64,000 nt of DNA from Giardia intestinalis (lineage: Eukaryota): the NCBI GenBank assembly GCA_000002435.2, contig CM018793.1, one strand, 5' to 3'. Both the position numbers and the translations under genes were made by a program. Below are positions 2,905 through 41,911 of this stretch, piece after piece. Position 1 is the stretch's first letter; each line of letters starts with the position of its first letter. The notes beneath the pieces were generated by a model that saw only the letters and a list, made by a program, of their open reading frames with translations, had not been told where the DNA came from and did not search any database.

Positions 2905-2992
2905 TCTGTAAGATCTTTCCGGGCCCAATAAAACCAAAAAAAAGTAACTATTTCAATTTACTTTTTTGCCTTCTAAAACGGGGTCCGCTGAG

Positions 2993-3322: not shown

Positions 3323-3343
3323 AAGCGCCGCGACCCACTGGAA

Positions 3344-3350
3344 AGTAAAT
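3344..3350 (+). promoter_or_regulatory. AGTAAAT polyadenylation signal (Giardia AGTRAAY type) for RPL30
   Basis: Motif sits 22 nt downstream of the TAA at 3320-3322. Confidence 0.5.
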
Positions 3351-3363
3351 AACAGCTGCCGAG

Positions 3364-4755: not shown

Positions 4756-4757
4756 AT

Positions 4758-5201: not shown

Positions 5202-5303
5202 TAACGGTGCTAAATATTTCTATCAGTTTCACCAATTCACCAAAAATGATTATAAATTGCGTAAAGTAACGCTGTTTCAGTCGCTGCTTAGCCCTACTTT
5301 TAA

Positions 5304-6227: not shown

Positions 6228-6302
6228 CCCCAAAGTAAATTTCCTACAACTACTTCAGCTCCGGTGTCGCTTCAGAGGACGGAAGACCGGCTGGCACCGG
6301 CT

Positions 6303-8375: not shown

Positions 8376-9099
8376 GACAACCAACTAGGGGATTTTACTT
8401 TTGCATTTATCCAAACAATATGGAGATTGAGGTTGTTATATCTGGTTTGCCTTCATCATATTATGATCTGCTTACTTACATTGACTACGAGAGTGATGTA
8501 ATTAGAGGAAGAAGAATGAAGGAGCTATACTATATACTTTTCTGGTGCTATGTTGTCGGGACCCTGCCTGCAAATGAGATGAAAATTAGTCGTGGATAGT
8601 ATAATGAGAGGCTTCTTTTAATAGCATACTCAGGTCTAGTGCATTCTTCAGTTCTCTGTGTGGCGTGTATACCCGACGTGAGTGTGTACTTCCAGTGATG
8701 CCTTGCTTCTTGGTTCTTCTTCATGTCAAGCAGGAGTTCAGTTTGTCACTGTCCTTTTTAACGATGCTTCTATTCGATTCGGTGACAACAGCCATCAGGT
8801 CTCGGGTTCCACTGGGGGTTGTGGTTCTGTGAGCGTTCATTTTAGCAGTATGAGGTCGGCGAGCTGTGGGTCTATGGTTGGCTAGTACGCGATTGCATCT
8901 ATCATCTCACGCTCACTTGGCCTGCTTATAATCTTTGGGTTACTCCAAAGCTCCAGGTGGTTGATACTTTTTTCCTCACAACCCTTCAGGACTCCAATGT
9001 GGAACCTTGCTGCCAATCTGCAAGTAGTTATCGGGCCCGATGTGGATCCTAAGCATTCACTCACTATAAACTGGCTCGCGCAGCTGTAGAGTCAAAACC

Positions 9100-10060
9100 T
9101 ATCATTGCCATGAGCCTCCTGGTCTCTACTGTCTAGATCCCCTTCGATCCCTGCTGTCGCCGCAGGACAAACCAGCACACAAGAGCAAGGACCACAGGGC
9201 GAGGACGGTGACGATGATCGTTGTGGAGCCGGCCTTCCTGGTCTGAGGGGCGCAGTCGTCATTCTTAAGGCTGTATCCTCGCATGCACGTGCAGAAAGGC
9301 GCAAAGGACTCCACCTGTCCGGCAGCCCGGGGTGCACAATCGCTTATTTGGCTGAACGCTGTTGGCGCTATTCGAGTACGAGAGGCACTCGCTGTCTACG
9401 TCACAGCTCGAGCAGCCCGTGTTCTAGGAGGGACAGTTGCTCGTGGGGACGCACTTCCCGGTGCTGTCTGATCCACAGCCGTTCACGCAGACATACCTGT
9501 TGTCACTGTCCTTCTCTTGATCCGGCTCGTTGCACTGGGCCCAGCTTGTAAATGGAACCACTCCATGGGAGCCTCCTGCGTCACGGACCTGTGCTGATCA
9601 GCGCGCCCCTGCTCTCCATCCTGGTGCTGGATGGGTGATGTGTCACACAGGCAGACCTGGAGGCAGAAGAGGAAGGGAGGGGCGGGGCATTTTAATTCGC
9701 AAAATGAACTCGACGGAGAACGCGTAATCGCTTGATGGGGGTCCTGAGGAGGCATTGAACGGCACTCAGTCTGTTCACTGATAGCCAGACAGCACACCTC
9801 TGCCAGCCAAGCAGCCGGTCCTCTGTCTCTTCGTAGGGAACAGGCAGAGCTACACTTGTTGAAGGAGCTCGGGTGTCACGCGACGCACGAGGACGTATCC
9901 CTTCCAGTCTCTTACACGACTTTTCCAGCTTGTACTGCACAGTGCGAGCAGGCAAGGCCGATGCAAAACCGTTTACAAACACCGAACGTGATACTCGGCA
10001 CCCGCTGAGGTAGAGCAGGCACTGCTGCATCACTAGACATACACCGATGAAGCTTGACAA
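9100..10060 (-). pseudogene. Decayed cysteine-rich (EGF-like, HCMP- or VSP-like) membrane protein gene remnant broken by frameshifts
   Basis: Cys-rich peptides lie in three minus-strand frames: ...QCNEPDQEKDSDNRYVCVNGCGSDSTGKCVPTSNCPS*, NTGCSSCDVDSECLSYSNS...CTPGCRTGG, and ...FCTCMRGYSLKNDDCAPQTRKAGSTTIIVTVLALWSLLLCAGLSCGD. The last fragment ends in a TM helix plus short tail. No intact ORF spans them. Confidence 0.3.
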
Positions 10061-10062
10061 CC

Positions 10063-12786
10063 CTATATCGACTTGGAGGGAATGAGCGTCATAGTACTGG
10101 GGGACGCATCGATGCGTCTGCCCCTAAAAATGAACCACCAGCAAAGGAAACCGACCAAGGCACCGATGGCGACCATAGCGACGGAGATTTCCATAATGGT
10201 CCTCATGGAGAGGCTGCTCTTGTTCGTGCTTCTGCCAGTACTGTTGCCATCTTTCATGAGGTAGCAGAGGACGGAGCCAGTATTGCTACCAATAGGAGGG
10301 ACACAGTTTAAGCAACCCTTGACACTAGTGATTGCATTGCCATCAGTTCCACTGTTACTTGTGCATTTCACGCATTTATTGTCAGTGGTTTTGTAATACC
10401 CTGCTAAGCAATCTGTGCAGGTTTCCTTACTACCCGCACACTTCACACATCCTTCAGTACACGCCGGACATTTTCCTCCAGCTGGGCTTTGTCCATTGGC
10501 ACACGTTTGGCATTGTCCCTTATTCTGTGCAGCCGTACATACAGAGCTACCAGGAAGCTTCTGTGTGTTGTAGCATCCGCCCGATAACAGAGCGTAGTTT
10601 GCTCCACACTCAGTGCATTTCCCGCCACTTGCCTTACATCCGGAGGCATCCCTCGCTGTTGCAGGTATGGATGTGCAGACGCCGTCGACTGGGGCGTACC
10701 CCTCCTCGCACTGATCGCAGTACTTCGAGCCTCCGACGTTCAGTGAGCAGCCGTCGGCCTTGCAGTGGGCCATAAAGTCTCCCGTGCACTCTTTTATGCA
10801 CGTTCCTGTGTCATCAGATGACCGACTCAGCACATACCCCGGATAGCAGGCCGTACACGACGTTTCTGCGTTAGTACTACAGCTTGCGCATGTATTGTGA
10901 CAGGAAGCGCAAATGCCGGTACTGTCACGATTATCGGGATATGTGCCGGCAGGGCACTCCTCCAGACATGCATCATTAAGGGGGCTCAGTCTTTTGGTCT
11001 CACACCCAGAGCACGTAACTATTGGACCTGCTCTTGCAGACGCTGCCTTGAGAGAGCACTTTGCACAGTCGGCTATGCCACCATTAGCAGTATCGCTGCA
11101 CTTAGCGCACACCTTCTTGCCCTGTGCATCGGTCGTGGGGAAGAATCCATCCTTACACTCCTCTGCACTGACACAGCTGGGTGTCTCACCAGCTTTGAAG
11201 TAGAGCCCGTCCTTACACTCTTCACATATATTATCCACCACACAGCTCTTGCAGTTGGTGTCAGAGCACAGCACACACCCACTGCCACCCTTGTTGGGCA
11301 CCTTACTATTGTCACAGGAGGTACAGACAGCGGGGGTCATACCACCATCAGATGGAGCTGTCGGGGCCTTACATTGTGAGCAGCCCTCGACCCCCACATA
11401 TGCCTTAGCAGTACCTTGAGGATCTACTAGTGTGCCTAGAGGATTGCCACAAGCTAGCACAGACTGATCAGTAGCCTGTGCCTCTGGTACTACGAAGTAC
11501 TTATTACTTGCCGCTTCTGTGCATATCCCACTACTATCTGCTTTCTTGCACATATGACTACCTGGTACTTGACCAACCTTATAACAGCCATTCATGTACA
11601 AGAAGTAATCAGCAGTACACTGTGTGCATGTATGACTGTCACAAGTATTAGCTCCCTTCTTACCACTATCACTAGTGCATATACCATCTATAGGAGCTTG
11701 TGAACTATCTCCACAATAGGAACAGTAGTGCTTTGCATTGCCCTTATCATCTATTATCATGGCATCGCAGGCACCAGAAGTACCACCACAAGCCGTGGGG
11801 TCCTCGCAGGTCTTCACACATGTATAGTCATCATTTGCATCTTCATTGGACTGCTTCTTATAGTTGGGCTTACAGTCAGTGCACTTGAACCCATTATTGT
11901 TAGAACATAGACTACAGCCTTCGTGGCCCCCATTGGTTGTATCACTACAAGCAACGCACTTCTTCCCCTGTGGATCTGTAGTAGTTACCAAGAAGTATCC
12001 CGGCATGCATGTATCACACTTATTTGGATCACCAGCAACAGAACATGTGGCACAGTTATCACCACAAGCATCACAAGCTGTATCACTAGTCTTAAAGAAG
12101 CCCGGAAGGCACTTAGTGCATTGTTGTGCTGCAGTACAGGTTGCACAATTAGGAACTCCCTTAGATTCATCACCACACAAAAGGCACGCAGTATCACCAT
12201 CTTTGAAATGATAATCATCTTGGCATCCAGAGCTCATATCAACACAGGTTGTTGTCCCATCCAGCTCTGTCTTCACCTTCTTACCGTTACAGGCACTGCA
12301 CACCGGCTTCTGTAGCTTTGCATCGTACGTGCAAGCAGTGCACTCTGGTATGCCCCCCTGATCTGCTGCACCGTTACAGGCTGTGCACTTCCCAGTGCTT
12401 GGGTCGGGGTACTTATCTCCATTACAACTGCTAGCCTCTACACAATTGTTCCCATCGAGATATTTCCCGCTCGCACAGAGAGTGCACTTAGTTGCGCCCT
12501 CACCGCTGCAAGTCAGACAAGCTTTATCGCAGACTTTGCATTCGTTGGTATTGGGTGATTTGTATGATCCGGCAGCACACTCTGTACATGTAACTACTCC
12601 TGCACTCTGTGGTGCCTGACACTGTGCGCAGTTGGCCACTCCCATGACCCCGTTTCTATCTGTAGTATCCCAGCACAAGATGCACTCGCTACCAGGCTTC
12701 GGTGTTGCATCAGGGTTCTGGAATATGTACTTGTTATCTGCCTTACAAGCAGTGCACAGTCCATCACTGGCTGCTGTGCATATCAC
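10063..12786 (-). pseudogene. VSP-family cysteine-rich surface protein paralog, 5'-truncated, with a degenerate C-terminal tail
   Basis: 907 codons rich in CXXC and GGCY motifs, ending ...VAIGALVGFLCWWF like a VSP TM helix. The conserved LCRGKA-stop is replaced by IFRGRRIDASPSTMTLIPSKSI. The ORF begins at a GTG with no signal peptide, directly after the stop and polyA signal of the upstream VSP. Confidence 0.55.
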
Positions 12787-12861
12787 ACTCCACTATCACC
12801 CATTATCACCCACTATCACCCACTATCACCTTCTATCACACACTATCACACATTGTACAGC
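12787..12861. repeat. Degenerate 10-bp microsatellite (CACTATCACC; minus-strand GGTGATAGTG) of about 7 units, between the two VSP-family genes
   Basis: Direct reading: cactatcacc cattatcacc cactatcacc cactatcacc ttctatcaca cactatcaca. Confidence 0.7.
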
Positions 12862-12875
12862 ATTCACTACCTAAG
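12862..12875 (-). promoter_or_regulatory. VSP extended polyadenylation signal CTTAGGTAGTGAAT immediately 3' of the VSP stop
   Basis: Minus-strand sequence after the TGA at 12878-12876 reads CTTAGGTAGTGAAT, matching the conserved VSP 3' motif with an AGTRAAY core. Confidence 0.7.
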
Positions 12876-15800
12876 TCACGCCTTCCCCCTGCAGAGGAAC
12901 CACCAGCAGAGGAAGCCCACGAGGCCCCCCACGACGACGACCACAGCGACGGAGATCCCCGCGATAGCCCCCGTGGAGAGCCCGCTACTCTTGTTTGTGC
13001 TACCGCTATCATTTATGAGGTAGCAGACGACAGATCCTTGATTATTAGGTGGAGGAGCGCAGCTCATGCAGCCAGCAACTCCCTTGACACTTCCACTGTT
13101 GCTGTCACACGAAATACATGTGTTTGGCCCTGACCCGACCATATAGTACCCAGCTGCGCATGACGTACACTTATCAGAGCTATCTGCAGTCGAGCATGTC
13201 TTGCAGGTCGAATGACACGAGGGGCATGCTCCATCATTGGGCTGAAGACTATTGGCGCACGTCTGACATCCACCATTGCTATCAGCTAGTGTGCATATCT
13301 GTATGCCAGGTTGTCTGCCGAGTTTATAGCAGCCTCCATCTTGAAGGAAATGATCTGCAGCACACTGAGTGCATACGCCACCTGCTGCGTTCGTGCAGAA
13401 TGAATTCCTTGTTACTGAATTAGCGCACACGCCATTCTGAGGTGCCCACTTATCTTCCTTGCATTTTGAACAGTACTTCGTACCGCCGATTACCGCTCCA
13501 CACTCTGCACACCCGTCCACCTCTGCTTTGCACTCATCTACACAAGATCCACCTTGATTAGGATCATCATTGGTGTACTGGAGCCTCTTCCCGGGAGGAC
13601 ACAGCGTGCACTTCGCTGGCCCCTTTGTGGTGCACCCAGCACAGCTAGGATCACAAGGCTCGCACGCTTTGTCTCCATCATAGTAGCTTCCTATTGCTCC
13701 GCAGCTCTGCGTGCACTGCTTTGTCGGGGTGAGGTAATCGCCGTCATTACATTCAGTGCAGATTTCGTTGTCTGTTTTGGGGTTGTCACAGGTCTTACAG
13801 TTGGGAGTATTGCAGGCCGTCTCTGATACGCACGTCGTCCCGTCCGACGAGGGCTTGTTCCCAGGCGTGCACTCGCAGACCCCACTATTTTCTGTGGTCA
13901 CGCTCGGAGGGCACGAAGCGATGCAGCCCTTCTTGTCCGGCCTGACCTTCTTTGAGGACGAGCAGGTGAGGCAGGTTTGTGCGCTACCCGTGCCGGTGCA
14001 GGTCGCACAGCCCGCGGTGGTCAAGGGGTCCTCGCATTGATCTGCGTTTGGGACGCACGTCGTCCCGTCCGACGAGGGCTTGTTCCCAGGCGTGCACTCG
14101 CAGACCCCACTATTTTCTGTGGTCACGCTCGGAGGGCACGAAGCGATGCAGCCCTTCTTGTCCGGCCTGACCTTCTTTGAGGACGAGCAGGTGAGGCAGG
14201 TTTGTGCGCTACCCGTGCCGGTGCAGGTCGCACAGCCCGCGGTGGTCAAGGGGTCCTCGCATTGATCTGCGTTTGGGACGCACGTCGTCCCGTCCGACGA
14301 GGGCTTGTTCCCAGGCGTGCACTCGCAGACCCCACTATTTTCTGTGGTCACGCTCGGAGGGCACGAAGCGATGCAGCCCTTCTTGTCCGGCCTGACCTTC
14401 TTTGAGGACGAGCAGGTGAGGCAGGTTTGTGCGCTACCCGTGCCGGTGCAGGTCGCACAGCCCGCGGTGGTCAAGGGGTCCTCGCATTGATCTGCGTTTG
14501 GGACGCACGTCGTCCCGTCCGACGAGGGCTTGTTCCCAGGCGTGCACTCGCAGACCCCACTATTTTCTGTGGTCACGCTCGGAGGGCACGAAGCGATGCA
14601 GCCCTTCTTGTCCGGCCTGACCTTCTTTGAGGACGAGCAGGTGAGGCAGGTTTGTGCGCTACCCGTGCCGGTGCAGGTCGCACAGCCCGCGGTGGTCAAG
14701 GGGTCCTCGCATTGATCTGCGTTTGGGACGCACGTCGTCCCGTCCGACGAGGGCTTGTTCCCAGGCGTGCACTCGCAGACCCCACTATTTTCTGTGGTCA
14801 CGCTCGGAGGGCACGAAGCGATGCAGCCCTTCTTGTCCGGCCTGACCTTCTTTGAGGACGAGCAGGTGAGGCAGGTTTGTGCGCTACCCGTGCCGGTGCA
14901 GGTCGCACAGCCCGCGGTGGTCAAGGGGTCCTCGCATTGATCTGCGTTTGGGACGCACGTCGTCCCGTCCGACGAGGGCTTGTTCCCAGGCGTGCACTCG
15001 CAGACCCCACTATTTTCTGTGGTCACGCTCGGAGGGCACGAAGCGATGCAGCCCTTCTTGTCCGGCCTGACCTTCTTTGAGGACGAGCAGGTGAGGCAGG
15101 TTTGTGCGCTACCCGTGCCGGTGCAGGTCGCACAGCCCGCGGTGGTCAAGGGGTCCTCGCATTGATCTGCGTTTGGGACGCACGTCGTCCCGTCCGACGA
15201 GGGCTTGTTCCCAGGCGTGCACTCGCAGACCCCACTATTTTCTGTGGTCACGCTCGGAGGGCACGAAGCGATGCAGCCCTTCTTGTCCGGCCTGACCTTC
15301 TTTGAGGACGAGCAGGTGAGGCAGGTTTGTGCGCTACCCGTGCCGGTGCAGGTCGCACAGCCCGCGGTGGTCAAGGGGTCCTCGCATTGATCTGCGTTTG
15401 GGACGCACGTCGTCCCGTCCGACGAGGGCTTGTTCCCAGGCGTGCACTCGCAGACCCCACTATTTTCTGTGGTCACGCTCGGAGGGCACGAAGCGATGCA
15501 GCCCTTCTTGTCCGGCCTGACCTTCTTTGAGGACGAGCAGGTGAGGCAGGTTTGTGCGCTACCCGTGCCGGTGCAGGTCGCACAGCCCGCGGTGGTCAAG
15601 GGGTCCTCGCATTGATCTGCGTTTGGGACGCACGTCGTCCCGTCCGACGAGGGCTTGTTCCCAGGCGTGCACTCGCAGACCCCACTATTTTCTGTGGTCA
15701 CGCTCGGAGGGCACGAAGCGATGCAGCCCTTCTTGTCCGGCCTGACCTTCTTTGAGGACGAGCAGGTGAGGCAGGTTTGTGCGCTACCCGTGCCGGTGCA

Positions 15801-18641
15801 GGTCGCACAGCCCGCGGTGGTCAAGGGGTCCTCGCATTGATCTGCGTTTGGGACGCACGTCGTCCCGTCCGACGAGGGCTTGTTCCCAGGCGTGCACTCG
15901 CAGACCCCACTATTTTCTGTGGTCACGCTCGGAGGGCACGAAGCGATGCAGCCCTTCTTGTCCGGCCTGACCTTCTTTGAGGACGAGCAGGTGAGGCAGG
16001 TTTGTGCGCTACCCGTGCCGGTGCAGGTCGCACAGCCCGCGGTGGTCAAGGGGTCCTCGCATTGATCTGCGTTTGGGACGCACGTCGTCCCGTCCGACGA
16101 GGGCTTGTTCCCAGGCGTGCACTCGCAGACCCCACTATTTTCTGTGGTCACGCTCGGAGGGCACGAAGCGATGCAGCCCTTCTTGTCCGGCCTGACCTTC
16201 TTTGAGGACGAGCAGGTGAGGCAGGTTTGTGCGCTACCCGTGCCGGTGCAGGTCGCACAGCCCGCGGTGGTCAAGGGGTCCTCGCATTGATCTGCGTTTG
16301 GGACGCACGTCGTCCCGTCCGACGAGGGCTTGTTCCCAGGCGTGCACTCGCAGACCCCACTATTTTCTGTGGTCACGCTCGGAGGGCACGAAGCGATGCA
16401 GCCCTTCTTGTCCGGCCTGACCTTCTTTGAGGACGAGCAGGTGAGGCAGGTTTGTGCGCTACCCGTGCCGGTGCAGGTCGCACAGCCCGCGGTGGTCAAG
16501 GGGTCCTCGCATTGATCTGCGTTTGGGACGCACGTCGTCCCGTCCGACGAGGGCTTGTTCCCAGGCGTGCACTCGCAGACCCCACTATTTTCTGTGGTCA
16601 CGCTCGGAGGGCACGAAGCGATGCAGCCCTTCTTGTCCGGCCTGACCTTCTTTGAGGACGAGCAGGTGAGGCAGGTTTGTGCGCTACCCGTGCCGGTGCA
16701 GGTCGCACAGCCCGCGGTGGTCAAGGGGTCCTCGCATTGATCTGCGTTTGGGACGCACGTCGTCCCGTCCGACGAGGGCTTGTTCCCAGGCGTGCACTCG
16801 CAGACCCCACTATTTTCTGTGGTCACGCTCGGAGGGCACGAAGCGATGCAGCCCTTCTTGTCCGGCCTGACCTTCTTTGAGGACGAGCAGGTGAGGCAGG
16901 TTTGTGCGCTACCCGTGCCGGTGCAGGTCGCACAGCCCGCGGTGGTCAAGGGGTCCTCGCATTGATCTGCGTTTGGGACGCACGTCGTCCCGTCCGACGA
17001 GGGCTTGTTCCCAGGCGTGCACTCGCAGACCCCACTATTTTCTGTGGTCACGCTCGGAGGGCACGAAGCGATGCAGCCCTTCTTGTCCGGCCTGACCTTC
17101 TTTGAGGACGAGCAGGTGAGGCAGGTTTGTGCGCTACCCGTGCCGGTGCAGGTCGCACAGCCCGCGGTGGTCAAGGGGTCCTCGCATTGATCTGCGTTTG
17201 GGACGCACGTCGTCCCGTCCGACGAGGGCTTGTTCCCAGGCGTGCACTCGCAGACCCCACTATTTTCTGTGGTCACGCTCGGAGGGCACGAAGCGATGCA
17301 GCCCTTCTTGTCCGGCCTGACCTTCTTTGAGGACGAGCAGGTGAGGCAGGTTTGTGCGCTACCCGTGCCGGTGCAGGTCGCACAGCCCGCGGTGGTCAAG
17401 GGGTCCTCGCATTGATCTGCGTTTGGGACGCACGTCGTCCCGTCCGACGAGGGCTTGTTCCCAGGCGTGCACTCGCAGACCCCACTATTTTCTGTGGTCA
17501 CGCTCGGAGGGCACGAAGCGATGCAGCCCTTCTTGTCCGGCCTGACCTTCTTTGAGGACGAGCAGGTGAGGCAGGTTTGTGCGCTACCCGTGCCGGTGCA
17601 GGTCGCACAGCCCGCGGTGGTCAAGGGGTCCTCGCATTGATCTGCGTTTGGGACGCACGTCGTCCCGTCCGACGAGGGCTTGTTCCCAGGCGTGCACTCG
17701 CAGACCCCACTATTTTCTGTGGTCACGCTCGGAGGGCACGAAGCGATGCAGCCCTTCTTGTCCGGCCTGACCTTCTTTGAGGACGAGCAGGTGAGGCAGG
17801 TTTGTGCGCTACCCGTGCCGGTGCAGGTCGCACAGCCCGCGGTGGTCAAGGGGTCCTCGCATTGATCTGCGTTTGGGACGCACGTCGTCCCGTCCGACGA
17901 GGGCTTGTTCCCAGGCGTGCACTCGCAGACCCCACTATTTTCTGTGGTCACGCTCGGAGGGCACGAAGCGATGCAGCCCTTCTTGTCCGGCCTGACCTTC
18001 TTTGAGGACGAGCAGGTGAGGCAGGTTTGTGCGCTACCCGTGCCGGTGCAGGTCGCACAGCCCGCGGTGGTCAAGGGGTCCTCGCATTGATCTGCGTTTG
18101 GGACGCACGTCGTCCCGTCCGACGAGGGCTTGTTCCCAGGCGTGCACTCGCAGACCCCACTATTTTCTGTGGTCACGCTCGGAGGGCACGAAGCGATGCA
18201 GCCCTTCTTGTCCGGCCTGACCTTCTTTGAGGACGAGCAGGTGAGGCAGGTTTGTGCGCTACCCGTGCCGGTGCAGGTCGCACAGCCCGCGGTGGTCAAG
18301 GGGTCCTCGCATTGATCTGCGTTTGGGACGCACGTCGTCCCGTCCGACGAGGGCTTGTTCCCAGGCGTGCACTCGCAGACCCCACTATTTTCTGTGGTCA
18401 CGCTCGGAGGGCACGAAGCGATGCAGCCCTTCTTGTCCGGCCTGACCTTCTTTGAGGACGAGCAGGTGAGGCAGGTTTGTGCGCTACCCGTGCCGGTGCA
18501 GGTCGCACAGCCCGCGGTGGTCAAGGGGTCCTCGCATTGATCTGCGTTTGGGACGCACGTCTGCCCGTTCGCCGACGGCGTGTTCCCAGCCTTGCAGTTT
18601 GCCCGTGCTACTGTACAAAATAGAAGAAGCCCTAGCAACAT
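12876..18641 (-). CDS. Variant-specific surface protein (VSP), 1921 aa, with ~21 tandem 75-aa cysteine-rich repeats
   Basis: Signal peptide MLLGLLLFCTVARA (ATG confirmed at 18641). Multiple CXXC motifs, GGCY motif, C-terminal TM helix and CRGKA* tail. Each repeat unit CVPNADQCEDPLTTAGCATCTGTGSAQTCLTCSSSKKVRPDKKGCIASCPPSVTTENSGVCECTPGNKPSSDGTT has 10 Cys. Confidence 0.85.
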   Translation of the reverse strand: MLLGLLLFCTVARANCKAGNTPSANGQTCVPNADQCEDPLTTAGCATCTGTGSAQTCLTCSSSKKVRPDKKGCIASCPPSVTTENSGVCECTPGNKPSSDGTTCVPNADQCEDPLTTAGCATCTGTGSAQTCLTCSSSKKVRPDKKGCIASCPPSVTTENSGVCECTPGNKPSSDGTTCVPNADQCEDPLTTAGCATCTGTGSAQTCLTCSSSKKVRPDKKGCIASCPPSVTTENSGVCECTPGNKPSSDGTTCVPNADQCEDPLTTAGCATCTGTGSAQTCLTCSSSKKVRPDKKGCIASCPPSVTTENSGVCECTPGNKPSSDGTTCVPNADQCEDPLTTAGCATCTGTGSAQTCLTCSSSKKVRPDKKGCIASCPPSVTTENSGVCECTPGNKPSSDGTTCVPNADQCEDPLTTAGCATCTGTGSAQTCLTCSSSKKVRPDKKGCIASCPPSVTTENSGVCECTPGNKPSSDGTTCVPNADQCEDPLTTAGCATCTGTGSAQTCLTCSSSKKVRPDKKGCIASCPPSVTTENSGVCECTPGNKPSSDGTTCVPNADQCEDPLTTAGCATCTGTGSAQTCLTCSSSKKVRPDKKGCIASCPPSVTTENSGVCECTPGNKPSSDGTTCVPNADQCEDPLTTAGCATCTGTGSAQTCLTCSSSKKVRPDKKGCIASCPPSVTTENSGVCECTPGNKPSSDGTTCVPNADQCEDPLTTAGCATCTGTGSAQTCLTCSSSKKVRPDKKGCIASCPPSVTTENSGVCECTPGNKPSSDGTTCVPNADQCEDPLTTAGCATCTGTGSAQTCLTCSSSKKVRPDKKGCIASCPPSVTTENSGVCECTPGNKPSSDGTTCVPNADQCEDPLTTAGCATCTGTGSAQTCLTCSSSKKVRPDKKGCIASCPPSVTTENSGVCECTPGNKPSSDGTTCVPNADQCEDPLTTAGCATCTGTGSAQTCLTCSSSKKVRPDKKGCIASCPPSVTTENSGVCECTPGNKPSSDGTTCVPNADQCEDPLTTAGCATCTGTGSAQTCLTCSSSKKVRPDKKGCIASCPPSVTTENSGVCECTPGNKPSSDGTTCVPNADQCEDPLTTAGCATCTGTGSAQTCLTCSSSKKVRPDKKGCIASCPPSVTTENSGVCECTPGNKPSSDGTTCVPNADQCEDPLTTAGCATCTGTGSAQTCLTCSSSKKVRPDKKGCIASCPPSVTTENSGVCECTPGNKPSSDGTTCVPNADQCEDPLTTAGCATCTGTGSAQTCLTCSSSKKVRPDKKGCIASCPPSVTTENSGVCECTPGNKPSSDGTTCVPNADQCEDPLTTAGCATCTGTGSAQTCLTCSSSKKVRPDKKGCIASCPPSVTTENSGVCECTPGNKPSSDGTTCVPNADQCEDPLTTAGCATCTGTGSAQTCLTCSSSKKVRPDKKGCIASCPPSVTTENSGVCECTPGNKPSSDGTTCVPNADQCEDPLTTAGCATCTGTGSAQTCLTCSSSKKVRPDKKGCIASCPPSVTTENSGVCECTPGNKPSSDGTTCVPNADQCEDPLTTAGCATCTGTGSAQTCLTCSSSKKVRPDKKGCIASCPPSVTTENSGVCECTPGNKPSSDGTTCVSETACNTPNCKTCDNPKTDNEICTECNDGDYLTPTKQCTQSCGAIGSYYDGDKACEPCDPSCAGCTTKGPAKCTLCPPGKRLQYTNDDPNQGGSCVDECKAEVDGCAECGAVIGGTKYCSKCKEDKWAPQNGVCANSVTRNSFCTNAAGGVCTQCAADHFLQDGGCYKLGRQPGIQICTLADSNGGCQTCANSLQPNDGACPSCHSTCKTCSTADSSDKCTSCAAGYYMVGSGPNTCISCDSNSGSVKGVAGCMSCAPPPNNQGSVVCYLINDSGSTNKSSGLSTGAIAGISVAVVVVVGGLVGFLCWWFLCRGKA
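13838..18560. repeat. Perfect tandem array, 225-bp unit x about 21 copies (intragenic, in the VSP)
   Basis: Sequence lines repeat exactly with period 225 bp from ~14040 to ~18540. The first and last units diverge at the array edges. Confidence 0.9.
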
Positions 18642-18787
18642 TAGCCGGAACCTACACTCGGTTATCGACTCGCATCTGCTCTTCGAAGGATTGCAACAGT
18701 AAAACTATGGACTACCACCAACCTAATTGTAGATCAATGCGTTGAGAATAACGAGCTCTAATGGATGTGTCACCATTCAGTGGCTAG

Positions 18788-19036
18788 CTACTGCCATGAC
18801 TCTGCCTCTGAAGCCAAGAACGGGCTTTCATCGTTGACGTAGCAGGTTCCTGTTTCAATAGCAAAGCCTCTAGCCCACTTGTATCTGTTCTGATTCCCTC
18901 GGTGGTTCTCTGCACAAATGTATTCAGAGGACTGACCCTCGTACAATCTTACCTTTGCTATGTTTATCACCGGTGATCCTGCCGGCTTCTTCTGTGGTGG
19001 TTTCTCCGCTGCGGGAAACCACGACACAATACTCAT
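18788..19036 (-). CDS. Small hypothetical protein (82 aa)
   Basis: ATG confirmed at 19036 with an AT-rich upstream stretch (GAAAAAGATAATAAGC). No recognisable family. Confidence 0.3.
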   Translation of the reverse strand: MSIVSWFPAAEKPPQKKPAGSPVINIAKVRLYEGQSSEYICAENHRGNQNRYKWARGFAIETGTCYVNDESPFLASEAESWQ

Positions 19037-19476
19037 TCAGATAGCAAATACGCCAGCTAATATTACCGTACGCTTATTATCTTTTTCATGCTCACACAGG
19101 TAGCTGGGCTCTGCACCTCTCTTCGTTGTAGTCGTTGCCTACACTAGTTGTGTGCACTAGACACCTGCTCTGCTCACTGTCTGCGAGGAGCAGCAGACCA
19201 ATGAGCTCGGCGACTAGCCACGTGTTTTGCATGGGCAATGGATGGTATAGACTTACACTTGTGCATCCTGCTCGATCATTGCTAGCGATGCCACGTTGCC
19301 AGAGAGTAAGCTCGAATATCAAAAATGGATTACAGGCCACTCGTGGAGCTAACCATGTGCGCCAAGGACTGTCACATGCATAAGACACAGCTGACCTGTG
19401 CAATTGAAATCTTGTGCAGCATTATAAACCAATGACTTAAAATTATTTAACGCTAAAAAATCAGTATGAGATAAAA

Positions 19477-20148
19477 ATGAGTCTTGGCGCGACTGGCGAA
19501 AATGAGTTTCAGTACTACACAATAGAGCGGATTATCCAAGGATGTATAATAGGCGACAAAAAGGTGGGAAAAACAACGATCATCCGCAGATTGTCCTGTT
19601 TGATGAATACTCTGAGCGGCGACATACGCGACGACTCCATTAACAAGGTTTCAGGCATTTATAGCTATCAGGAGTTATCCATTGGGATCCGCTTGTTTGA
19701 CTACCCGCGCCTCGGGGCACTGGACTCCGATGAAATTTTTCAGCTCCTCACAGATATGCAAGGCGTCATCTTTGTTTGTGATATCAATGATAAGGAGTCT
19801 ATAGCTACTGCAGCCAGGGGCGCTGAGTGCATTCGCGCCAAGCGCCCAGAACTAGTTATCTTACTGGTCTTCAACAAGGATGACGGAGACTATGATCGCT
19901 TGGTTCCCACAAACGTCGAATTGCAGGCCGTTGCCGCAAAGAGCGGATCCATCTGCCTACGCTGCAGTGCAAAAGAGAACTACAACATGGAGGACCTCTT
20001 GTTCAATTTTGTGGATAACATTGTGAATCCCAATCAGCAATATATGAAGTTTTGTCTGGCCAAGTCCATAAGTTTGACAAAACTTAAGACAGGGGAGTCC
20101 CAAAAGAATAACGCACACGGGGACAAGAAAGGCTGCTCCGTGATGTGA
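19477..20148 (+). CDS. Ras-superfamily small GTPase with C-terminal CaaX box
   Basis: G1 GDKKVGKT, G4 NKDD and G5 SAK motifs, plus C-terminal CSVM. Switch II is non-canonical (DYPRLG instead of DTAGQE). ATG at 19477 after AAAAATCAGTATGAGATAAAA. Confidence 0.65.
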   Translation: MSLGATGENEFQYYTIERIIQGCIIGDKKVGKTTIIRRLSCLMNTLSGDIRDDSINKVSGIYSYQELSIGIRLFDYPRLGALDSDEIFQLLTDMQGVIFVCDINDKESIATAARGAECIRAKRPELVILLVFNKDDGDYDRLVPTNVELQAVAAKSGSICLRCSAKENYNMEDLLFNFVDNIVNPNQQYMKFCLAKSISLTKLKTGESQKNNAHGDKKGCSVM

Positions 20149-20236
20149 CCCCGTGAGTTTACTGATTTTCAGCCGTGCACGTTTCCAAAATTATATTAAA
20201 TTTATTAAGTTTCTGCTTAAAGTATTCTAAAAAGAA

Positions 20237-21526
20237 ATGTCTTTGCCCTCCACCGTGCAGCTCAACTGCGGCCAGACGCTTCCGGGCAGGTATGCAAAGT
20301 CTGCCCTGAGTGAGCACCTTTCGGACGATCATGGCATCCCCCTTCCCGAGTACATCAACCTTTATAAACATTTTGCAAGTCAGCCAGGCGTCGGTCTAGT
20401 GATTTCGGGCCACATGATGGTTTCGAGGGAAGGACGAGGAGAACTGGGGAACGTTTGCTTCTCTAAGAGCGACTTTGAGAATGCTGAGACACCCTTGATA
20501 TCTCAGCTCAAGAAAACTGTAGAGGCCTCACGCAAAGGGAACCCTGATGTCAAGTTGCTGGCGCAAATAAACCACTGCGGAAGACAGATACCGAAAAAAG
20601 TCTTGAAGGCCAACTTCACTGAAGATAGCAAGTCTCACTACAAAGGCAAGGCCATCTCCTTTTACGACCGCGCATGTCCAGGGCTCTCGCTGATGTTCCC
20701 CAAACCTCTATGCATCAAGGATGAGCTTCCATTCTTTGAAAAGGGAGATGCTGCCAATTCGCCTATTCTGAACGAGCTCGTGGAGGAGTATAGCCAGACG
20801 GCTGAATGTGTGGTCCACAAATGTGGGTACGACGGGGTCCAACTTCACACAGCTCATGGATATCTGATGAGTGATATAGTCACCAATGGAGGCTGGGCTG
20901 TGTTTAGAAAGACTCTAGAAGCATGTCGAGCGAAAATCGGGTCTAGTTCTATTTTGGGCGTTAAAATTAACATTCCCGACACGGATTTGTCTGTCAAGGA
21001 GTACAGTGATAACCTTATTGCGATCGCTAATGACGAAGCAATCCTCCTTGATTTCATCGAGTTTTCAGCTGGGAGCTATAGCAAGCCTGTGATGATGTCC
21101 TCGGCTGGACACTTCACTCTGGACTTTGGAACCATTTTCAGGCAAGCCCTAGAAACTACCAAGTCGGGTTGCAAGGTTATGGTTACAGGACGATTCACAT
21201 CTGCGGAGATGGCAGACAAGGCAATTAGTGAGTCCAAGGTGGATCTGGTTGGCTTTGGCCGCGCATTCTGCCTCCCCCAGCCGTTTGACGAAAGCACGAC
21301 ACGCATCATCCGTGGAGGGCTGCCACTTTCCAAGTTCTCTGCGTCCATCATTTATCAGCTGGCAAAGCTAGTGCCGATGGTTTCGACCGGCCCCAACACC
21401 ATGTATTGGGCGGGCTGGATGGCTAAAGTTGCACGCGGCGAAGTCTCCACAAACAAGGAGGTTGAGGACTACAAGATAAAGGGCACGGGCCTCACTTGGT
21501 ATATCTCCACGCTGATGAAACTGTAA
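20237..21526 (+). CDS. Old Yellow Enzyme-family NADH:flavin oxidoreductase (TIM barrel)
   Basis: Motifs LAQINHCGRQ (OYE QLxHxGR) and HTAHGYLMS (HxAHGYL). ATG at 20237 after AAAAAGAA. Confidence 0.65.
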   Translation: MSLPSTVQLNCGQTLPGRYAKSALSEHLSDDHGIPLPEYINLYKHFASQPGVGLVISGHMMVSREGRGELGNVCFSKSDFENAETPLISQLKKTVEASRKGNPDVKLLAQINHCGRQIPKKVLKANFTEDSKSHYKGKAISFYDRACPGLSLMFPKPLCIKDELPFFEKGDAANSPILNELVEEYSQTAECVVHKCGYDGVQLHTAHGYLMSDIVTNGGWAVFRKTLEACRAKIGSSSILGVKINIPDTDLSVKEYSDNLIAIANDEAILLDFIEFSAGSYSKPVMMSSAGHFTLDFGTIFRQALETTKSGCKVMVTGRFTSAEMADKAISESKVDLVGFGRAFCLPQPFDESTTRIIRGGLPLSKFSASIIYQLAKLVPMVSTGPNTMYWAGWMAKVARGEVSTNKEVEDYKIKGTGLTWYISTLMKL

Positions 21527-21545
21527 ATGATCGTTTATTGAAGAG

Positions 21546-24500
21546 TCATCCAATGTGCTGGCGAAGCAGGGCCTCGATTGACTTCTTAATCTCTGCATTG
21601 GCATGTCTAGCGGCTTCTGTGGCATAATGAAGAGCGGATCTGCCCCTTCTGTCGCGAAGCCGAATCTCCTTAGGGATAAGCATACGAACGCAGTCTATGT
21701 GGCCAAACTGGCAAGCCCACATGAGGGCTGTTGTGCCCCATGCAGTCTGAATCTTAGCCTCACTTCCTATCAGCAGAGCAACTATCTGTTTATGGCCTGC
21801 GCCTGCAGCCAGCATAAGAGCGGTAATCCCCTCGGCATCCTGCAGCGCGCCCTGCGTTGGTATAAGAGACCACACTGCGTAAACATCATTGTTCTCGGCC
21901 GCAGACATGAGCTGTGTCCTTGTTCCGTTCACGCGCTCGATGGGTTCTACTTCAAGGCCCTCAGCCTTGCGCAGCTTCTCTGCAACTTCGTAGTGTCCTC
22001 GGTGAAGGGCAATGTGGATTGCCATTTGCCCTGATGAATCCTTTATCCCAGCTTCTTTTTCCAACAGAAGAGGCACGGAGCTCACTCTATTGTATTCAGC
22101 CGCAAGCATAAGTGCCGTCTTGCCATCTGGGGCAACTTGTCCGGCATACTCCAGGTTAGCTTCGATGTCTGATGCCTTGCCTTTCATAATGGCTCTCATA
22201 AGAGGAGTGTATGTAGCCAATCGTGCCTCTAGTAACGCGCTAGCTTGTTCGCCCGATAGTCCGAACGTCATCTTAAGTGCTCCCTTAGATCTCTCCTCCA
22301 GCTTTGGAGCAACGTGGTTGTCTGTGTCATAAAACTCTATGTGGTGCGAAGCCGAAACCTTGGAGGTCTTTTGCGAGGATTTATGCGAAGAAGACACATG
22401 CTTGGAAGAAGAGGCACTGGATCGAGAACGCGATTTCGATGACGAGCGCACAGAATTCCTACTAGCATTAGCCGCGGAACCCTTTTTGTCCTCAACCATC
22501 TGCAGCTCTCCGCCGATAGCATTGGTCAGCTCGTGTTTGAGCTTTTCGTTTTCCTCAGCTAGTTCGTCTATCTGCTCCTCGAGCTTTGTTGTGGTGTCCA
22601 CCAAGGCCTTGACCACGATGTCATGGTTGAAGGTTTCTTCCTCAGTTATTCTAGCAATTGCAGCAACGACCTTGGCTGCGGCTGAGACAGACCGAACATT
22701 CCGGCTAATGGCTGAAGGCTGCGCCTTCGCAGCCTTCTTCATCTTCTCGTTCTCCTTTTCTAGGGTTTCCAGGCGGTTCACGACATTATCAAGCTGCTTC
22801 TTCTGCTTTTTGAGAGCCGACTCTTGCGACTTTGAGTGAGCAAGGCTACTATCGAGTGCCGCGAGTATTTGTTTCTTTTCGTCAATGGTGCGTTGTAGAC
22901 AGTCTTCCACAATCTTTAGTTCATTGATGTGCTGTTGTCGGTTCTCTGCAGTATCTGTTTCTTTCTCCAAATCAATCCCCACGCTACGTGCCGGGGGCAC
23001 ATTCATATCGATAAGACCGCTCTTCACCAACATCGAATCAGTGCCTCCGTGGCTACCAAAACTCTTGTGCACTGCAGCCTCTGCATCAGGAGTCTCAGTG
23101 CGCACATTTTCAAGTGTAGCACAATGGTGCGATTCTGTATGATTGCCTTCATCTTTTGTGCTCCCTGGACGCGGTTGTGCAGACGTAGCACTATGAAGCT
23201 TCTTCTCTGTTATGCGAAGAAGATCCTTGGTTTCACTGAGCTGCTCGGATTGGAGCCTAAACTCAAGATTAAGCGACTGATATTTCTGTTCAAGGCTTTC
23301 GTTTTTCGCCGTTAGACGATCTAGCTTTCCTTTCAACAGCTTCAGCTGAGTTTCTTGTGTCTCTACCTGCATTTGCAGCTCATCACGCTCCTGTCTAAGG
23401 TCACTTAGTTCTGCCTCATTAGACTCATTCTGTGTAGCGTTGTTACCAATTGCTGACTCTATGTCTGCAATTGCCTTGAACATATTTTCTTTCTTGAGTG
23501 ATTGCTCTGTCTCCTCTAGTTTTTGTTCTAAGACATTGCACTTGTCCTTGGCATCTCTAAGAGCTTCCTGGAGCGCTACTATTTCAATCTGCTTAGCGTC
23601 CAGCTCTGCACTCTTCTCCCCATGCTCTAATGTTTTGTTTGCAAGCCTGTTTTCTGTGTCTACTAAAGTGTTCTCGGTATTCTTCAAAGTACATAACAGT
23701 TGGTCATTTTCTGCCCTCAGATCATTCACCTCTGCCTGAAGCTTCTCTTGAATTGCAGATTGCTCTGCTAGTTGAGCAGAAAGATCATCAATGGAGTTCT
23801 GCTGACCATTCTTCTCCAACAGCTCTGCCACTTGGTGAGTTGCATCACTCAGCTTATCTGTTAGCTCTTGCACCTCTCTACGCAAGCACTCTTCCTGACC
23901 AGTGAGTGTGTCCCTTTGTTCCTTTAACTCCACTACTTCATCTCGGGCGCTGGAGAGGTTCACAACTAGCTCAGAGTTACGGCCCTCAAGCTCCTGCAAA
24001 AGAGCCTGAAGTCTCTCGATTTCAGCATCCTTGTCAGCAGCAAGAGCTTCAATGGCTGACGCATCAGAATCCTTCTTGTCAGTGATGTTCATTATGTAAA
24101 GAGCAAGGCTGTCATGTCCATTTGCTTGAGCATTTTCTGCAGCTGCCATTCGTGCTGATGTGTCAAAGGGACACTCATGCAGTAGACTCTCCACACACTC
24201 ATGATGTCCGGCCCTCGACGCATAGTCCAACGCAGTTAGTCCCATGTTATCAGACTCGTTCCCGTAATGGAAGAATAGAACACGGAGCGCGTGTATACTT
24301 CCTGCTTCTGCTGCAACCATTAGAGGAGTCACGGAGTCATCTCTTCGGCAATCTGAAAGATAGGGGAGGAGAATTGGAATGCACGACGATACATCCAGCT
24401 TAGCGGCCAGCATGAGCGCATTGTCCCCATCATTGTTTGTAAGCTTTGCTTCTTGCTCAACTAATAGTCTGACCATTTTCGGATCATCGTTTTGTACTGC

Positions 24501-24620
24501 GAGCATCAGACCCGTAAGCCCGTCTGCATTCTGGGTCCCAGCAAACAAGGAGATGCCTTCCTGGACTGTGTGGTAGTCACGCGACACAATAGCGTCAAAC
24601 CAGCGCTCTGGGTCGTCCAT
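21546..24620 (-). CDS. Protein 21.1-type ankyrin-repeat / coiled-coil protein (1024 aa)
   Basis: N-terminal MDDPERWFDAIV...GLTGLMLAV ankyrin-like repeats, a central heptad-rich E/L/K/Q region, and C-terminal ankyrin repeats (TALMLAA, TALMWAC). ATG at 24620 with AT-rich upstream. Confidence 0.75.
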   Translation of the reverse strand: MDDPERWFDAIVSRDYHTVQEGISLFAGTQNADGLTGLMLAVQNDDPKMVRLLVEQEAKLTNNDGDNALMLAAKLDVSSCIPILLPYLSDCRRDDSVTPLMVAAEAGSIHALRVLFFHYGNESDNMGLTALDYASRAGHHECVESLLHECPFDTSARMAAAENAQANGHDSLALYIMNITDKKDSDASAIEALAADKDAEIERLQALLQELEGRNSELVVNLSSARDEVVELKEQRDTLTGQEECLRREVQELTDKLSDATHQVAELLEKNGQQNSIDDLSAQLAEQSAIQEKLQAEVNDLRAENDQLLCTLKNTENTLVDTENRLANKTLEHGEKSAELDAKQIEIVALQEALRDAKDKCNVLEQKLEETEQSLKKENMFKAIADIESAIGNNATQNESNEAELSDLRQERDELQMQVETQETQLKLLKGKLDRLTAKNESLEQKYQSLNLEFRLQSEQLSETKDLLRITEKKLHSATSAQPRPGSTKDEGNHTESHHCATLENVRTETPDAEAAVHKSFGSHGGTDSMLVKSGLIDMNVPPARSVGIDLEKETDTAENRQQHINELKIVEDCLQRTIDEKKQILAALDSSLAHSKSQESALKKQKKQLDNVVNRLETLEKENEKMKKAAKAQPSAISRNVRSVSAAAKVVAAIARITEEETFNHDIVVKALVDTTTKLEEQIDELAEENEKLKHELTNAIGGELQMVEDKKGSAANASRNSVRSSSKSRSRSSASSSKHVSSSHKSSQKTSKVSASHHIEFYDTDNHVAPKLEERSKGALKMTFGLSGEQASALLEARLATYTPLMRAIMKGKASDIEANLEYAGQVAPDGKTALMLAAEYNRVSSVPLLLEKEAGIKDSSGQMAIHIALHRGHYEVAEKLRKAEGLEVEPIERVNGTRTQLMSAAENNDVYAVWSLIPTQGALQDAEGITALMLAAGAGHKQIVALLIGSEAKIQTAWGTTALMWACQFGHIDCVRMLIPKEIRLRDRRGRSALHYATEAARHANAEIKKSIEALLRQHIG

Positions 24621-24790
24621 AGCTTACTCTAATTTTAAATTTTGAACTTTATCGCAACTTATAACTTCTTGCTAGAACTCTGGAATCTCCTTAAACCGGG
24701 AGGTGTATGATGGCAGTCGATTGATCGGGAGTTAGTACCATGTTTTTATGACTTTACATAAGGTCTTGCCACTTCACAATCGAGGAGTAT

Positions 24791-41828: not shown

Positions 41829-41911
41829 CAATCTCCGAATTTTTTAAATTTTTACCGAACAAATTCAAAAGACGTCACTAATGATTTACTGAAAAGGCCA
41901 TAAGGCATCCC

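What the first reader, a model, noticed from the sequence alone, without database searches (positions are those of the whole stretch)
12876..18641. Giant VSP carrying ~21 perfectly identical 225-bp repeats
The 1921-aa variant-specific surface protein has an N-terminal signal peptide, a C-terminal TM helix and a CRGKA tail. About 1575 aa of it consist of ~21 copies of one 75-aa, 10-Cys module, and the copies are identical at the nucleotide level. Repeat-bearing VSPs are known, but this period (225 bp) and its perfect identity imply very recent expansion or ongoing concerted evolution. Copy number is probably polymorphic between isolates. Such an array is also a classic site for assembly collapse or inflation.
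Basis: partly seen in the sequence, partly recalled or inferred. Interest (0 to 1): 0.8.

Follow-up and report, generated by a model that had tools for sequence, protein, structure and literature searches.

The report
Known Giardia VSP-AS7 with 21 identical repeats
This is a real but already catalogued surface-antigen gene of the parasite Giardia intestinalis WB (VSP-AS7, GL50803_137717), whose 225-bp repeat array was compressed to about 4 copies in the 2007 genome and restored to 21 identical copies by the 2020 long-read reference.

Summary
The ORF at 12876..18641 (-) encodes 1,921 aa. It holds 21.04 copies of a 225-bp (75-aa, 10-Cys) unit with zero mismatches over 4,734 nt. It also has a hydrophobic leader, a TM helix and a CRGKA tail.

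The VSP call is correct: Pfam VSP E=1.7e-83, a TAATGTT initiator and an AGTGAA poly(A) signal.

It is not new. The protein is exactly XP_001709261.2 / KAE8305145.1 of Giardia intestinalis WB-C6. Adam et al. 2010 list it as vsp21 = AS7 = GL50803_137717, 'TR225', on chromosome 5. Two shorter deposited versions, of 646 aa (4 copies) and 721 aa (5 copies), differ from it only in copy number. So the Sanger assembly collapsed the array, as its authors had warned.

The syntenic orthologue in isolate DH has about 2 copies. Both DH copies carry five codon states absent from all 21 WB copies. Paralogous WB arrays are each internally perfect but only 34-64% identical to one another. This is the signature of array-specific homogenisation or recent expansion.

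Repeat-bearing giant VSPs (vspA6/CRP170, vspC5), their copy-number variation and their immunodominance have been known since the 1990s. This is an ordinary, well-explained feature of low interest.

The parts
12876..18641 (-). Complete CDS of VSP-AS7 / vsp21 / GL50803_137717 (1,921 aa, 191.6 kDa), stop codon included
   Evidence: ORF listing. Exact match to XP_001709261.2 / KAE8305145.1. Pfam VSP E=1.7e-83.
18637..18643 (-). Initiator element TAATGTT spanning the start codon
   Evidence: Sequence read. Same Inr type as listed for vsp21 in the Adam 2010 table.
18600..18641 (-). N-terminal hydrophobic leader MLLGLLLFCTVARA (putative signal peptide)
   Evidence: GRAVY 2.03. No SignalP was run here. 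The reference annotation criterion for 'VSP' required SignalP.
18561..18596 (-). Diverged start of the edge (first) repeat copy, aa 16-27 CKAGNTPSANGQ
   Evidence: 7 of its first 12 codons differ from the internal unit. TRF extends the array to 18596.
13828..18561 (-). Perfect tandem array: 21.04 copies of a 225-bp / 75-aa / 10-Cys unit, 0 mismatches
   Evidence: Periodicity run. One distinct unit among copies 2-21. TRF score 9482.
12972..13826 (-). Non-repetitive Cys-rich ectodomain body (aa 1606-1890), the canonical VSP region
   Evidence: The best Pfam VSP stretch lies at the C-terminus. It aligns with invariant Cys columns across 120 VSPs. pLDDT is about 90 in the model of the 646-aa version.
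12894..12971 (-). Transmembrane helix GAIAGISVAVVVVVGGLVGFLCWWFL
   Evidence: GRAVY 2.26. Modelled as a helix. Nearly invariant across the family.
12879..12893 (-). Cytoplasmic CRGKA tail (stop codon at 12876-12878)
12863..12868 (-). AGTGAA, Giardia-type poly(A) signal starting 8 nt after the stop codon
   Evidence: Sequence read. Reading it as a poly(A) signal rests on established knowledge of the Giardia AGTRAA motif.

Best explanation
The locus is the chromosome-5 gene GL50803_137717 (vsp21, VSP-AS7) of Giardia intestinalis assemblage AI isolate WB-C6, as represented in the 2020 PacBio reference AACB03.

It encodes a type-I membrane coat protein with these parts in order:
- a cleavable leader;
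- a long disulfide-rich ectodomain;
- one TM helix;
- the 5-residue CRGKA cytoplasmic tail.

Like vspA6/CRP170 and vspC5, most of its ectodomain is an in-frame tandem array. Here the array has 21 identical 75-aa modules. Each module is predicted to fold as short beta-hairpins of the furin-like/EGF-like cysteine-rich kind. The protein is therefore probably an extended rod that displays the same epitopes 21 times.

It is one member of a repertoire of about 130-300 VSPs. One VSP is expressed per trophozoite and expression is switched epigenetically or post-transcriptionally (antigenic variation).

The array is kept homogeneous, and changes length, by unequal recombination, replication slippage or gene conversion between units. 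Edge copies escape this process and diverge.

The 4-copy form in the 2007 genome is a Sanger assembly collapse.

What is shown: gene identity, anatomy, perfect identity of units, difference from the earlier versions by whole units only, synteny with DH, and unit differences fixed array-wide.

What is inferred: the homogenisation mechanism, the rod shape, repeat immunodominance (by analogy with vspA6), and that 21 is the true copy number in the sequenced culture.
For: Identity:
- Exact match to XP_001709261.2 / KAE8305145.1 on a 4,018,654-bp contig.
- Adam 2010 Additional file 1 lists vsp21, clade II, AS7, AY142136, GL50803_137717, TR225, chromosome 5, Inr TAATGTT, 646 aa.
- Removing 17 or 16 units from the window protein reproduces XP_001709261.1 (646 aa) and AAN52110.1 (AS7, 721 aa) exactly.

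Family features:
- Pfam VSP.
- Inr, poly(A) signal, TM and CRGKA.
- 373 VSP homologues at E<=1e-20.

Assembly:
- PacBio RS II at 200x, read N50 12.7 kb, 10% of reads >20 kb, HGAP3 plus Illumina correction. Such reads span the 4.7-kb array many times over.

Homogenisation:
- One distinct unit among WB copies 2-21.
- Five codon states shared by both DH units but absent from all WB units.
- A diverged edge copy.
- Paralogues P0004 (10.2 x 75 aa) and P0009 (13.1 x 74 aa) are internally perfect but 34-64% identical between arrays.

Synteny with DH:
- 98% and 96.7% identity on the two flanks.

Fold:
- AlphaFold mean pLDDT 82.7, all short hairpins.
- Best local matches are R-spondin furin-like repeats (prob 0.96-0.97), EGF arrays and ErbB Cys-rich domains.

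The general phenomenon is already described: 36 of 136 WB VSPs carry tandem repeats, averaging 1,174 aa.
Against: - No raw reads could be examined. The copy number of 21 and the absolute identity of all units rest on the deposited consensus.
- Consensus polishing over identical repeats can erase rare single-unit variants.
- Three different copy numbers (4, 5, 21) are on record for one isolate. How the 5-copy AY142136 clone was obtained could not be established.
- Expression of this particular gene was not verified. Literature that uses the name VSPAS7 points to other gene IDs, 101496 and 137740.
- Fold-search TM-scores are low (TMt <= 0.41), so the fold class is only a resemblance.
- DH is a short-read assembly and could itself under-represent the array.
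Confidence: 0.9

Rival explanations
1. The 21x perfect array is partly an assembly or polishing artefact. Under this reading, the true array in WB-C6 has a different length, or contains a few variant units that consensus calling homogenised.
For: - Three copy numbers are deposited for the same gene.
- A second, unrelated array in the same window (768 bp x 9.65 copies) is also mismatch-free. This could reflect polishing behaviour as well as biology.
- Illumina 75-bp reads used for correction cannot be placed uniquely within identical units.
Against: - Read N50 is 12.7 kb at 200x, against a 4.7-kb array. Long-read assemblers resolve arrays that single reads span.
- Independent Sanger-era sequences show the same unit, identical across their 4-5 copies at protein level.
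- The assembly agreed with optical maps over 92.2% of their length.
Confidence: 0.1
2. The different deposited copy numbers are real. Under this reading, WB (tetraploid, with two nuclei) carries or has carried alleles or sub-lines with about 5 and about 21 units, as shown for vspA6 and vspC5. The reference shows only the majority or longest allele.
For: [quoted passage not shown]
- The AS7 GenBank entry has 5.04 copies rather than the 4.04 of the WGS assembly. So it is not simply the same collapse.
- Regions around VSPs show higher allelic variation in mapped reads.
Against: - The 4-copy WGS version is most simply a collapse of about 800-bp Sanger reads over identical 225-bp units.
- PCR or cloning of tandem arrays in E. 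coli commonly deletes units, which could explain the 5-copy clone.
- Overall allelic heterozygosity in WB is only 0.03%.
- No read-level data were available here.
Confidence: 0.2
3. The gene is an intact-looking but silent or decaying family member (a pseudo-VSP) with no role in the coat. Under this reading, the repeat expansion is neutral junk.
For: - The new annotation recognises 208 pseudo-VSPs against 133 VSPs.
- The immediately downstream gene (10063..12786) is pseudo-VSP-like.
- No expression data specific to GL50803_137717 were found.
Against: - The reading frame is open for 5.7 kb through 21 repeats.
- The leader, Inr, poly(A) signal, TM and CRGKA are intact.
- It is annotated as VSP rather than pseudo-VSP in the reference.
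- The name AS7 comes from an individually deposited VSP sequence, AY142136.
Confidence: 0.05

Closest known systems
GL50803_137717 = vsp21 = VSP-AS7 (AY142136 / AAN52110.1; XP_001709261) of Giardia intestinalis WB
   Same: It is the same gene. The window protein is an exact match to XP_001709261.2. It is identical to the earlier 646-aa and 721-aa versions once whole units are removed. The period (TR225), chromosome, Inr type and clade match the Adam 2010 table.
   Different: Only the copy number differs: 21.04 here, against 4.04 (2007 assembly; tabulated as 3 in 2010) and 5.04 (AS7 GenBank entry).
vspA6 / CRP170 (vsp67) of WB, a 195-bp x ~22-23 repeat VSP
   Same: - Same architecture: a short unique 5' end, then about 20 in-frame identical repeats, then about 1 kb of non-repetitive Cys-rich body, then the conserved TM-CRGKA end.
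- Similar size: ~5.6 kb and 170 kDa, against 5.8 kb and 192 kDa here.
- Copy number varies between alleles and related genes, and the repeats are immunodominant.
   Different: The unit is different: 65 aa against 75 aa, with unrelated sequence. For AS7, allele-specific expression and antibody epitopes have not been demonstrated.
WB paralogues P0004 (1,099 aa, 10.2 x 75 aa) and P0009 (1,029 aa, 13.1 x 74 aa)
   Same: P0004 shares the leader, the module length (75 aa), the Cys spacing and the C-terminal body, at 67% overall identity. Both paralogues have internally perfect arrays.
   Different: Their units are only 64% (P0004) and 35% (P0009) identical to the AS7 unit. They lie on other chromosomes, on contigs of 1.54 and 2.76 Mb.
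DH (assemblage AII) positional orthologue P0008, AHGT01000037
   Same: It has the same flanking genes (Ras-family GTPase, FMN oxidoreductase, ankyrin proteins, AAA ATPase) at 97-98% nucleotide identity. It has the same leader and a module that is 88% (aa) and 93-95% (nt) identical.
   Different: It has only about 2 units, and these differ from each other at 8 codons. Its C-terminal body is a different, P0004-like sequence, which suggests a mosaic or recombinant gene.
Furin-like / EGF-like cysteine-rich repeats (R-spondin Fu1-Fu2, ErbB domain IV, LRP2 and NELL EGF arrays)
   Same: The predicted architecture is disulfide-bonded beta-hairpins. Local Foldseek matches reach prob 0.96-0.97. Weak summed Pfam hits to cEGF and GF_recep_IV were found.
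   Different: There is no significant sequence match to any solved structure. TM-scores are <= 0.41, and no single Pfam stretch passes on its own. This is a resemblance of fold class, not membership.

Membership tests
Giardia variant-specific surface protein (VSP) | Match to the family profile (Pfam PF03302) | tested here: met
   281.2 bits, E=1.7e-83, against a curated cut-off of 31.4. 373 VSP homologues at E<=1e-20.
Giardia variant-specific surface protein (VSP) | C-terminal hydrophobic membrane anchor followed by the invariant CRGKA pentapeptide and a stop | tested here: met
   The C-terminus reads ...GAIAGISVAVVVVVGGLVGFLCWWFLCRGKA*. A helix is predicted.
Giardia variant-specific surface protein (VSP) | N-terminal signal peptide | tested here: inconclusive
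   MLLGLLLFCTVARA is strongly hydrophobic (GRAVY 2.03). It is shared with P0004 and P0008. No signal-peptide predictor was available. The reference annotation required a SignalP-positive leader for the name 'VSP'.
Giardia variant-specific surface protein (VSP) | Cysteine-rich ectodomain (~11-13% Cys) with many CXXC motifs | tested here: met
   253 Cys (13.2%) and 56 CXXC motifs. Cys columns are invariant in the alignment of 120 VSPs.
Giardia variant-specific surface protein (VSP) | Initiator element (T/C)AATGTT at the start codon, and an AGTRAA poly(A) signal just after the stop | tested here: met
   TAATGTT at 18643..18637 and AGTGAA at 12868..12863.
Giardia variant-specific surface protein (VSP) | Surface localisation with mutually exclusive, switching expression | not testable with these tools
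   No expression data specific to GL50803_137717 were found. Papers that use the name VSPAS7 refer to other gene IDs.
Tandem-repeat VSP subclass (vspA6 / vspC5 type) | A short unique 5' segment (66-99 bp), then in-frame tandem repeats (105-516 bp unit), then the conserved 3' end | tested here: met
   The array starts at ORF nt 46 (edge copy) or nt 81 (perfect part). The unit is 225 bp, and 225 = 75 x 3 keeps the frame. About 0.95 kb of non-repeat sequence follows, ending in the conserved 3' end. Criteria are from Adam 2010.
Tandem-repeat VSP subclass (vspA6 / vspC5 type) | Repeat copy number varies between alleles, isolates or related genes | tested here: inconclusive
   Copy numbers on record are 21 (WB 2020), 5 (AS7 clone), 4 (WB 2007) and about 2 (DH). 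Technical collapse cannot be separated from biology without reads.
Furin-like / EGF-like cysteine-rich repeat superfamily | Significant sequence or structural match of a single module | tested here: inconclusive
   The Pfam cEGF and GF_recep_IV scores are summed only, with 0 stretches passing on their own. There are no PDB sequence hits. Foldseek local prob is up to 0.97 but TM <= 0.41.

The most novel reading that the evidence does not exclude
The copy numbers deposited for this one gene in one isolate (4, 5 and 21) are not all technical. Under this reading, the AS7 array is somatically or allelically unstable within the WB lineage, so trophozoite sub-populations or homologous chromosomes carry AS7 proteins of very different length. 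This would add a second, recombination-based layer of antigen size variation on top of VSP switching.
Probability: 0.2. Interest if true: 0.35.

Novelty: already known. Interest (0 to 1): 0.12.

Why it matters
It matters little as a discovery. The gene, its 225-bp repeat, the class of giant repeat-bearing VSPs, their copy-number variability and the risk of assembly collapse are all in the literature (Adam et al. 2010; Xu et al. 2020; the 2022 Cys-rich-protein preprint).

There are three practical points:
1. Anyone using GL50803_137717 should know that the protein is about 192 kDa with 21 modules, not 65 kDa. This affects proteomic quantification, RNA-seq multi-mapping and antigen design.
2. 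The name 'VSPAS7' is attached to at least three different gene IDs in published work. Only 137717 matches the AS7 GenBank sequence.
3. The WB/DH comparison gives a clean textbook example of concerted evolution in an antigen array.

Tried and rejected
- Exact-product look-up of the 1,921-aa protein and of paralogue P0004 in the contig index found nothing on record. So nucleotide-level identity of the paralogous arrays could not be checked, and only protein-level identity is reported.
- A full-text search for '137717' found no paper.
- The primary paper on allelic vspA6 repeat variation (PMC308127) is not held. That precedent is cited through Adam 2010.
- The origin of the 5-copy AY142136 clone could not be traced.
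- I considered that the 2023 'VSPAS7' pyroptosis paper supplied functional data for this gene. I rejected that because it used GL50803_101496, whose product (P0010) is only 73% identical to the window gene and is not encoded in the window.
- A sequence search of the PDB gave no hits.
- An Rfam scan of the whole window gave no hits.
- Bacterial promoter/terminator scans and the phage, plasmid and E. coli collections were not used, because the organism is a eukaryote.
- I considered a frameshift explanation for the odd tail of the downstream pseudo-VSP. I dropped it because the tail differs by substitutions rather than a clean 1-nt shift.
Full report
**1. Observation**

The window contains an ATG-to-TGA ORF at 12876..18641 on the minus strand that encodes 1,921 aa. 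Tandem Repeats Finder reports a 225-bp period with 21.2 copies at 13828..18596.

A direct self-comparison shows that ORF positions 81-4814 (window 13828..18561) are perfectly periodic at 225 nt. That span is 4,734 nt, or 21.04 copies, with no mismatch. Units 2-21 reduce to one distinct sequence.

The unit is 75 aa with 10 Cys. The protein is 191.6 kDa, with 253 Cys (13.2%) and 56 CXXC motifs. Only the first (edge) copy is diverged, at 7 of its first 12 codons.

The N-terminus MLLGLLLFCTVARA is strongly hydrophobic. The C-terminus is a 26-residue hydrophobic helix followed by CRGKA and a stop.

**2. What it is**

Pfam assigns the protein to the Giardia VSP family (PF03302, 281 bits, E=1.7e-83). 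The start codon sits in the VSP initiator TAATGTT (18643..18637). A Giardia-type poly(A) signal, AGTGAA, begins 8 nt after the stop.

An exact-sequence look-up identifies the protein as KAE8305145.1 / XP_001709261.2, 'VSP', of Giardia intestinalis ATCC 50803 / WB clone C6, on a 4,018,654-bp contig. Its 90% cluster holds two shorter entries:
- XP_001709261.1, 646 aa, from the 2007 genome.
- AAN52110.1, 'variant-specific surface protein AS7', 721 aa.

Deleting 17 or 16 whole units from the window protein reproduces these two sequences exactly. So the three records describe one gene and differ only in copy number: 4.04, 5.04 and 21.04.

Additional file 1 of Adam et al. 2010 (PMC2996952) lists the gene as vsp21, clade II, AS7, AY142136, GL50803_137717, 'TR225', 3 repeats, chromosome 5, Inr TAATGTT, 646 aa. 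Two further WB VSPs are listed there with 225-nt repeats, so the period is not unusual.

**3. Why the copy number changed**

The 2007 assembly came from Sanger reads at about 11x. The current reference (AACB03, GCA_000002435.2) was built from PacBio RS II reads at 200x with N50 12.7 kb, 10% of reads >20 kb, HGAP3 and Illumina base correction. It was checked against optical maps. Such reads span a 4.7-kb array many times over.

[quoted passage not shown] They also noted that vspA6 and vspC5 show allelic copy-number variation.

I could not inspect raw reads. The exact number 21, and the absence of any rare unit variant, therefore rest on the deposited consensus.

**4. Surroundings and orthology**

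On the start-codon side of the VSP, a 223-aa Ras-family gene is divergently oriented (19477..20148, +). Beyond it lie an FMN-oxidoreductase-like gene and ankyrin-repeat genes.

On the stop-codon side lies a VSP-like ORF (10063..12786, -). It has no usable ATG or leader, and its tail reads ...CWWFIFRGRR plus 18 further residues instead of CRGKA. [quoted passage not shown].

The closest non-WB relative, P0008 (493 aa), lies on contig AHGT01000037 of assembly GCA_000498715.1. I identify this assembly as isolate DH (assemblage AII) from my own knowledge of the accession. The flanks align at high identity:
- Window 28641..18103 aligns to the locus at 98.0%.
- Window 11175..2876 aligns at 96.7%.
- The same neighbouring genes are present.

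P0008 is therefore the positional orthologue. It has about 2 units, which are 93-95% identical in nucleotides to the WB unit. Its C-terminal body does not align with the WB gene and instead resembles paralogue P0004. This indicates mosaic evolution of the gene body.

**5. Mechanism of homogeneity**

Both DH units carry five codon states that are absent from every one of the 21 WB units: codons 13 and 32 (synonymous), 17 N>S, 18 A>T and 23 D>G. The WB units do not differ among themselves at all.

Within WB, two paralogues are also internally perfect at protein level: P0004 (10.2 x 75 aa) and P0009 (13.1 x 74 aa). Yet their units are only 64% and 35% identical to the AS7 unit.

Together with the diverged edge copy, this is the classical signature of unequal crossing-over, slippage or gene conversion acting within each array. 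Equivalently, it fits an expansion from one unit after the AI/AII split. That is an inference from pattern; the recombination itself is not observed.

The two DH units differ at 8 codons near the junctions, and perfect periodicity there spans only 193 nt. So the DH assembly does not look like a simple collapse of identical copies. Because it is a short-read-era assembly, the inter-isolate polymorphism (21 versus about 2) is probable rather than proven.

**6. How the protein is likely to work**

The AlphaFold model of the 4-copy version, built with 120 VSP relatives, is confident (mean pLDDT 82.7). It consists of short beta-hairpins throughout the ectodomain, then a low-confidence linker, then a TM helix.

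Foldseek finds only local similarity, with TM <= 0.41. The most probable matches are R-spondin furin-like repeats (prob 0.96-0.97). EGF arrays (LRP2, NELL2) and ErbB cysteine-rich domains also appear. No solved structure is related by sequence.

I infer an elongated, disulfide-stapled stalk that presents the same 75-aa surface 21 times. By analogy with vspA6, whose repeats are immunodominant, the array would dominate the antibody response when this VSP is the one expressed. Expression, surface localisation and immunodominance of AS7 itself were not testable here.

**7. Comparison with what is known, and novelty**

Tandem-repeat VSPs have been known since the description of CRP170/vspA6 (195 bp x ~23, 170 kDa) and vspC5 (105 bp x ~25). 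The 2010 repertoire paper counts 30 of them, with units of 105-516 bp. An analysis of the new assembly counts 36 of 136 VSPs with repeats, averaging 1,174 aa.

The present gene is one of these, under a known name and accession. Nothing in its anatomy departs from the class. Novelty: already known.

**8. A caution on nomenclature**

'VSPAS7' is used for GL50803_101496 in a 2023 functional paper and for GL_137740 in a 2017 transcriptomic paper. The product of 101496 (P0010) is only 73% identical to the window gene and is not encoded in this window. The AS7 GenBank protein matches 137717 exactly, apart from copy number. Functional claims made for 'VSPAS7' should not be transferred to this gene.

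**9. Verdict**

The feature is ordinary and already explained, and interest is low (0.12).

The least ordinary reading still open is that the 5-copy and 21-copy forms are both real alleles or sub-line variants in WB (probability about 0.2). That would extend a phenomenon already documented for vspA6 and vspC5.

Noticed in passing
window 31914..41831 (-), array 32846..40259: A second giant ORF (3,305 aa) has a coiled-coil-like body and C-terminal ankyrin repeats. It holds a perfectly identical 768-bp (256-aa) tandem array of 9.65 copies (7,414 nt, 0 mismatches). TRF missed it because its period limit is 500. Mismatch-free in-frame arrays in this assembly are therefore not peculiar to VSPs. The 224-aa and 254-aa ORFs that recur every 768 bp on both strands are by-products of this array.
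   Followed up: partly
window 12790..12849: A 10-bp tandem repeat (GTGATAGTGG-like on the minus strand, 6 copies, 86% matches) lies immediately 3' of the AS7 poly(A) signal and 5' of the next VSP-like ORF. Its function is unknown.
   Followed up: no
window 10063..12786 (-): A VSP-family ORF (Pfam VSP E=4.3e-76) lies head-to-tail behind AS7. It has no in-frame ATG before residue 48 and no leader, and its tail reads ...CWWFIFRGRR plus 18 residues instead of CRGKA. It is probably a pseudo-VSP. The DH locus has a 590-aa VSP gene call at the equivalent place.
   Followed up: partly
window ~11175..13712 versus L001 10655..12180: Between otherwise 97-98% identical flanks, WB and DH do not align in the C-terminal body of the VSP or the start of the downstream VSP-like gene. 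The DH protein body resembles the WB chromosome-2 paralogue P0004. This suggests recombination or gene conversion between VSP loci.
   Followed up: partly
literature, not a window coordinate: The name VSPAS7 is applied to three gene IDs: 137717 in Adam 2010, 137740 in Ansell 2017 and 101496 in Parasit Vectors 2023. Only 137717 matches the AS7 GenBank protein.
   Followed up: yes
window 18642..19476: An 835-bp non-coding gap separates the VSP start from the divergently transcribed Ras-family gene. This is larger than the genome's mean intergenic distance of about 480 bp. It is consistent with the published remark that regions around VSPs are gene-poor.
   Followed up: no
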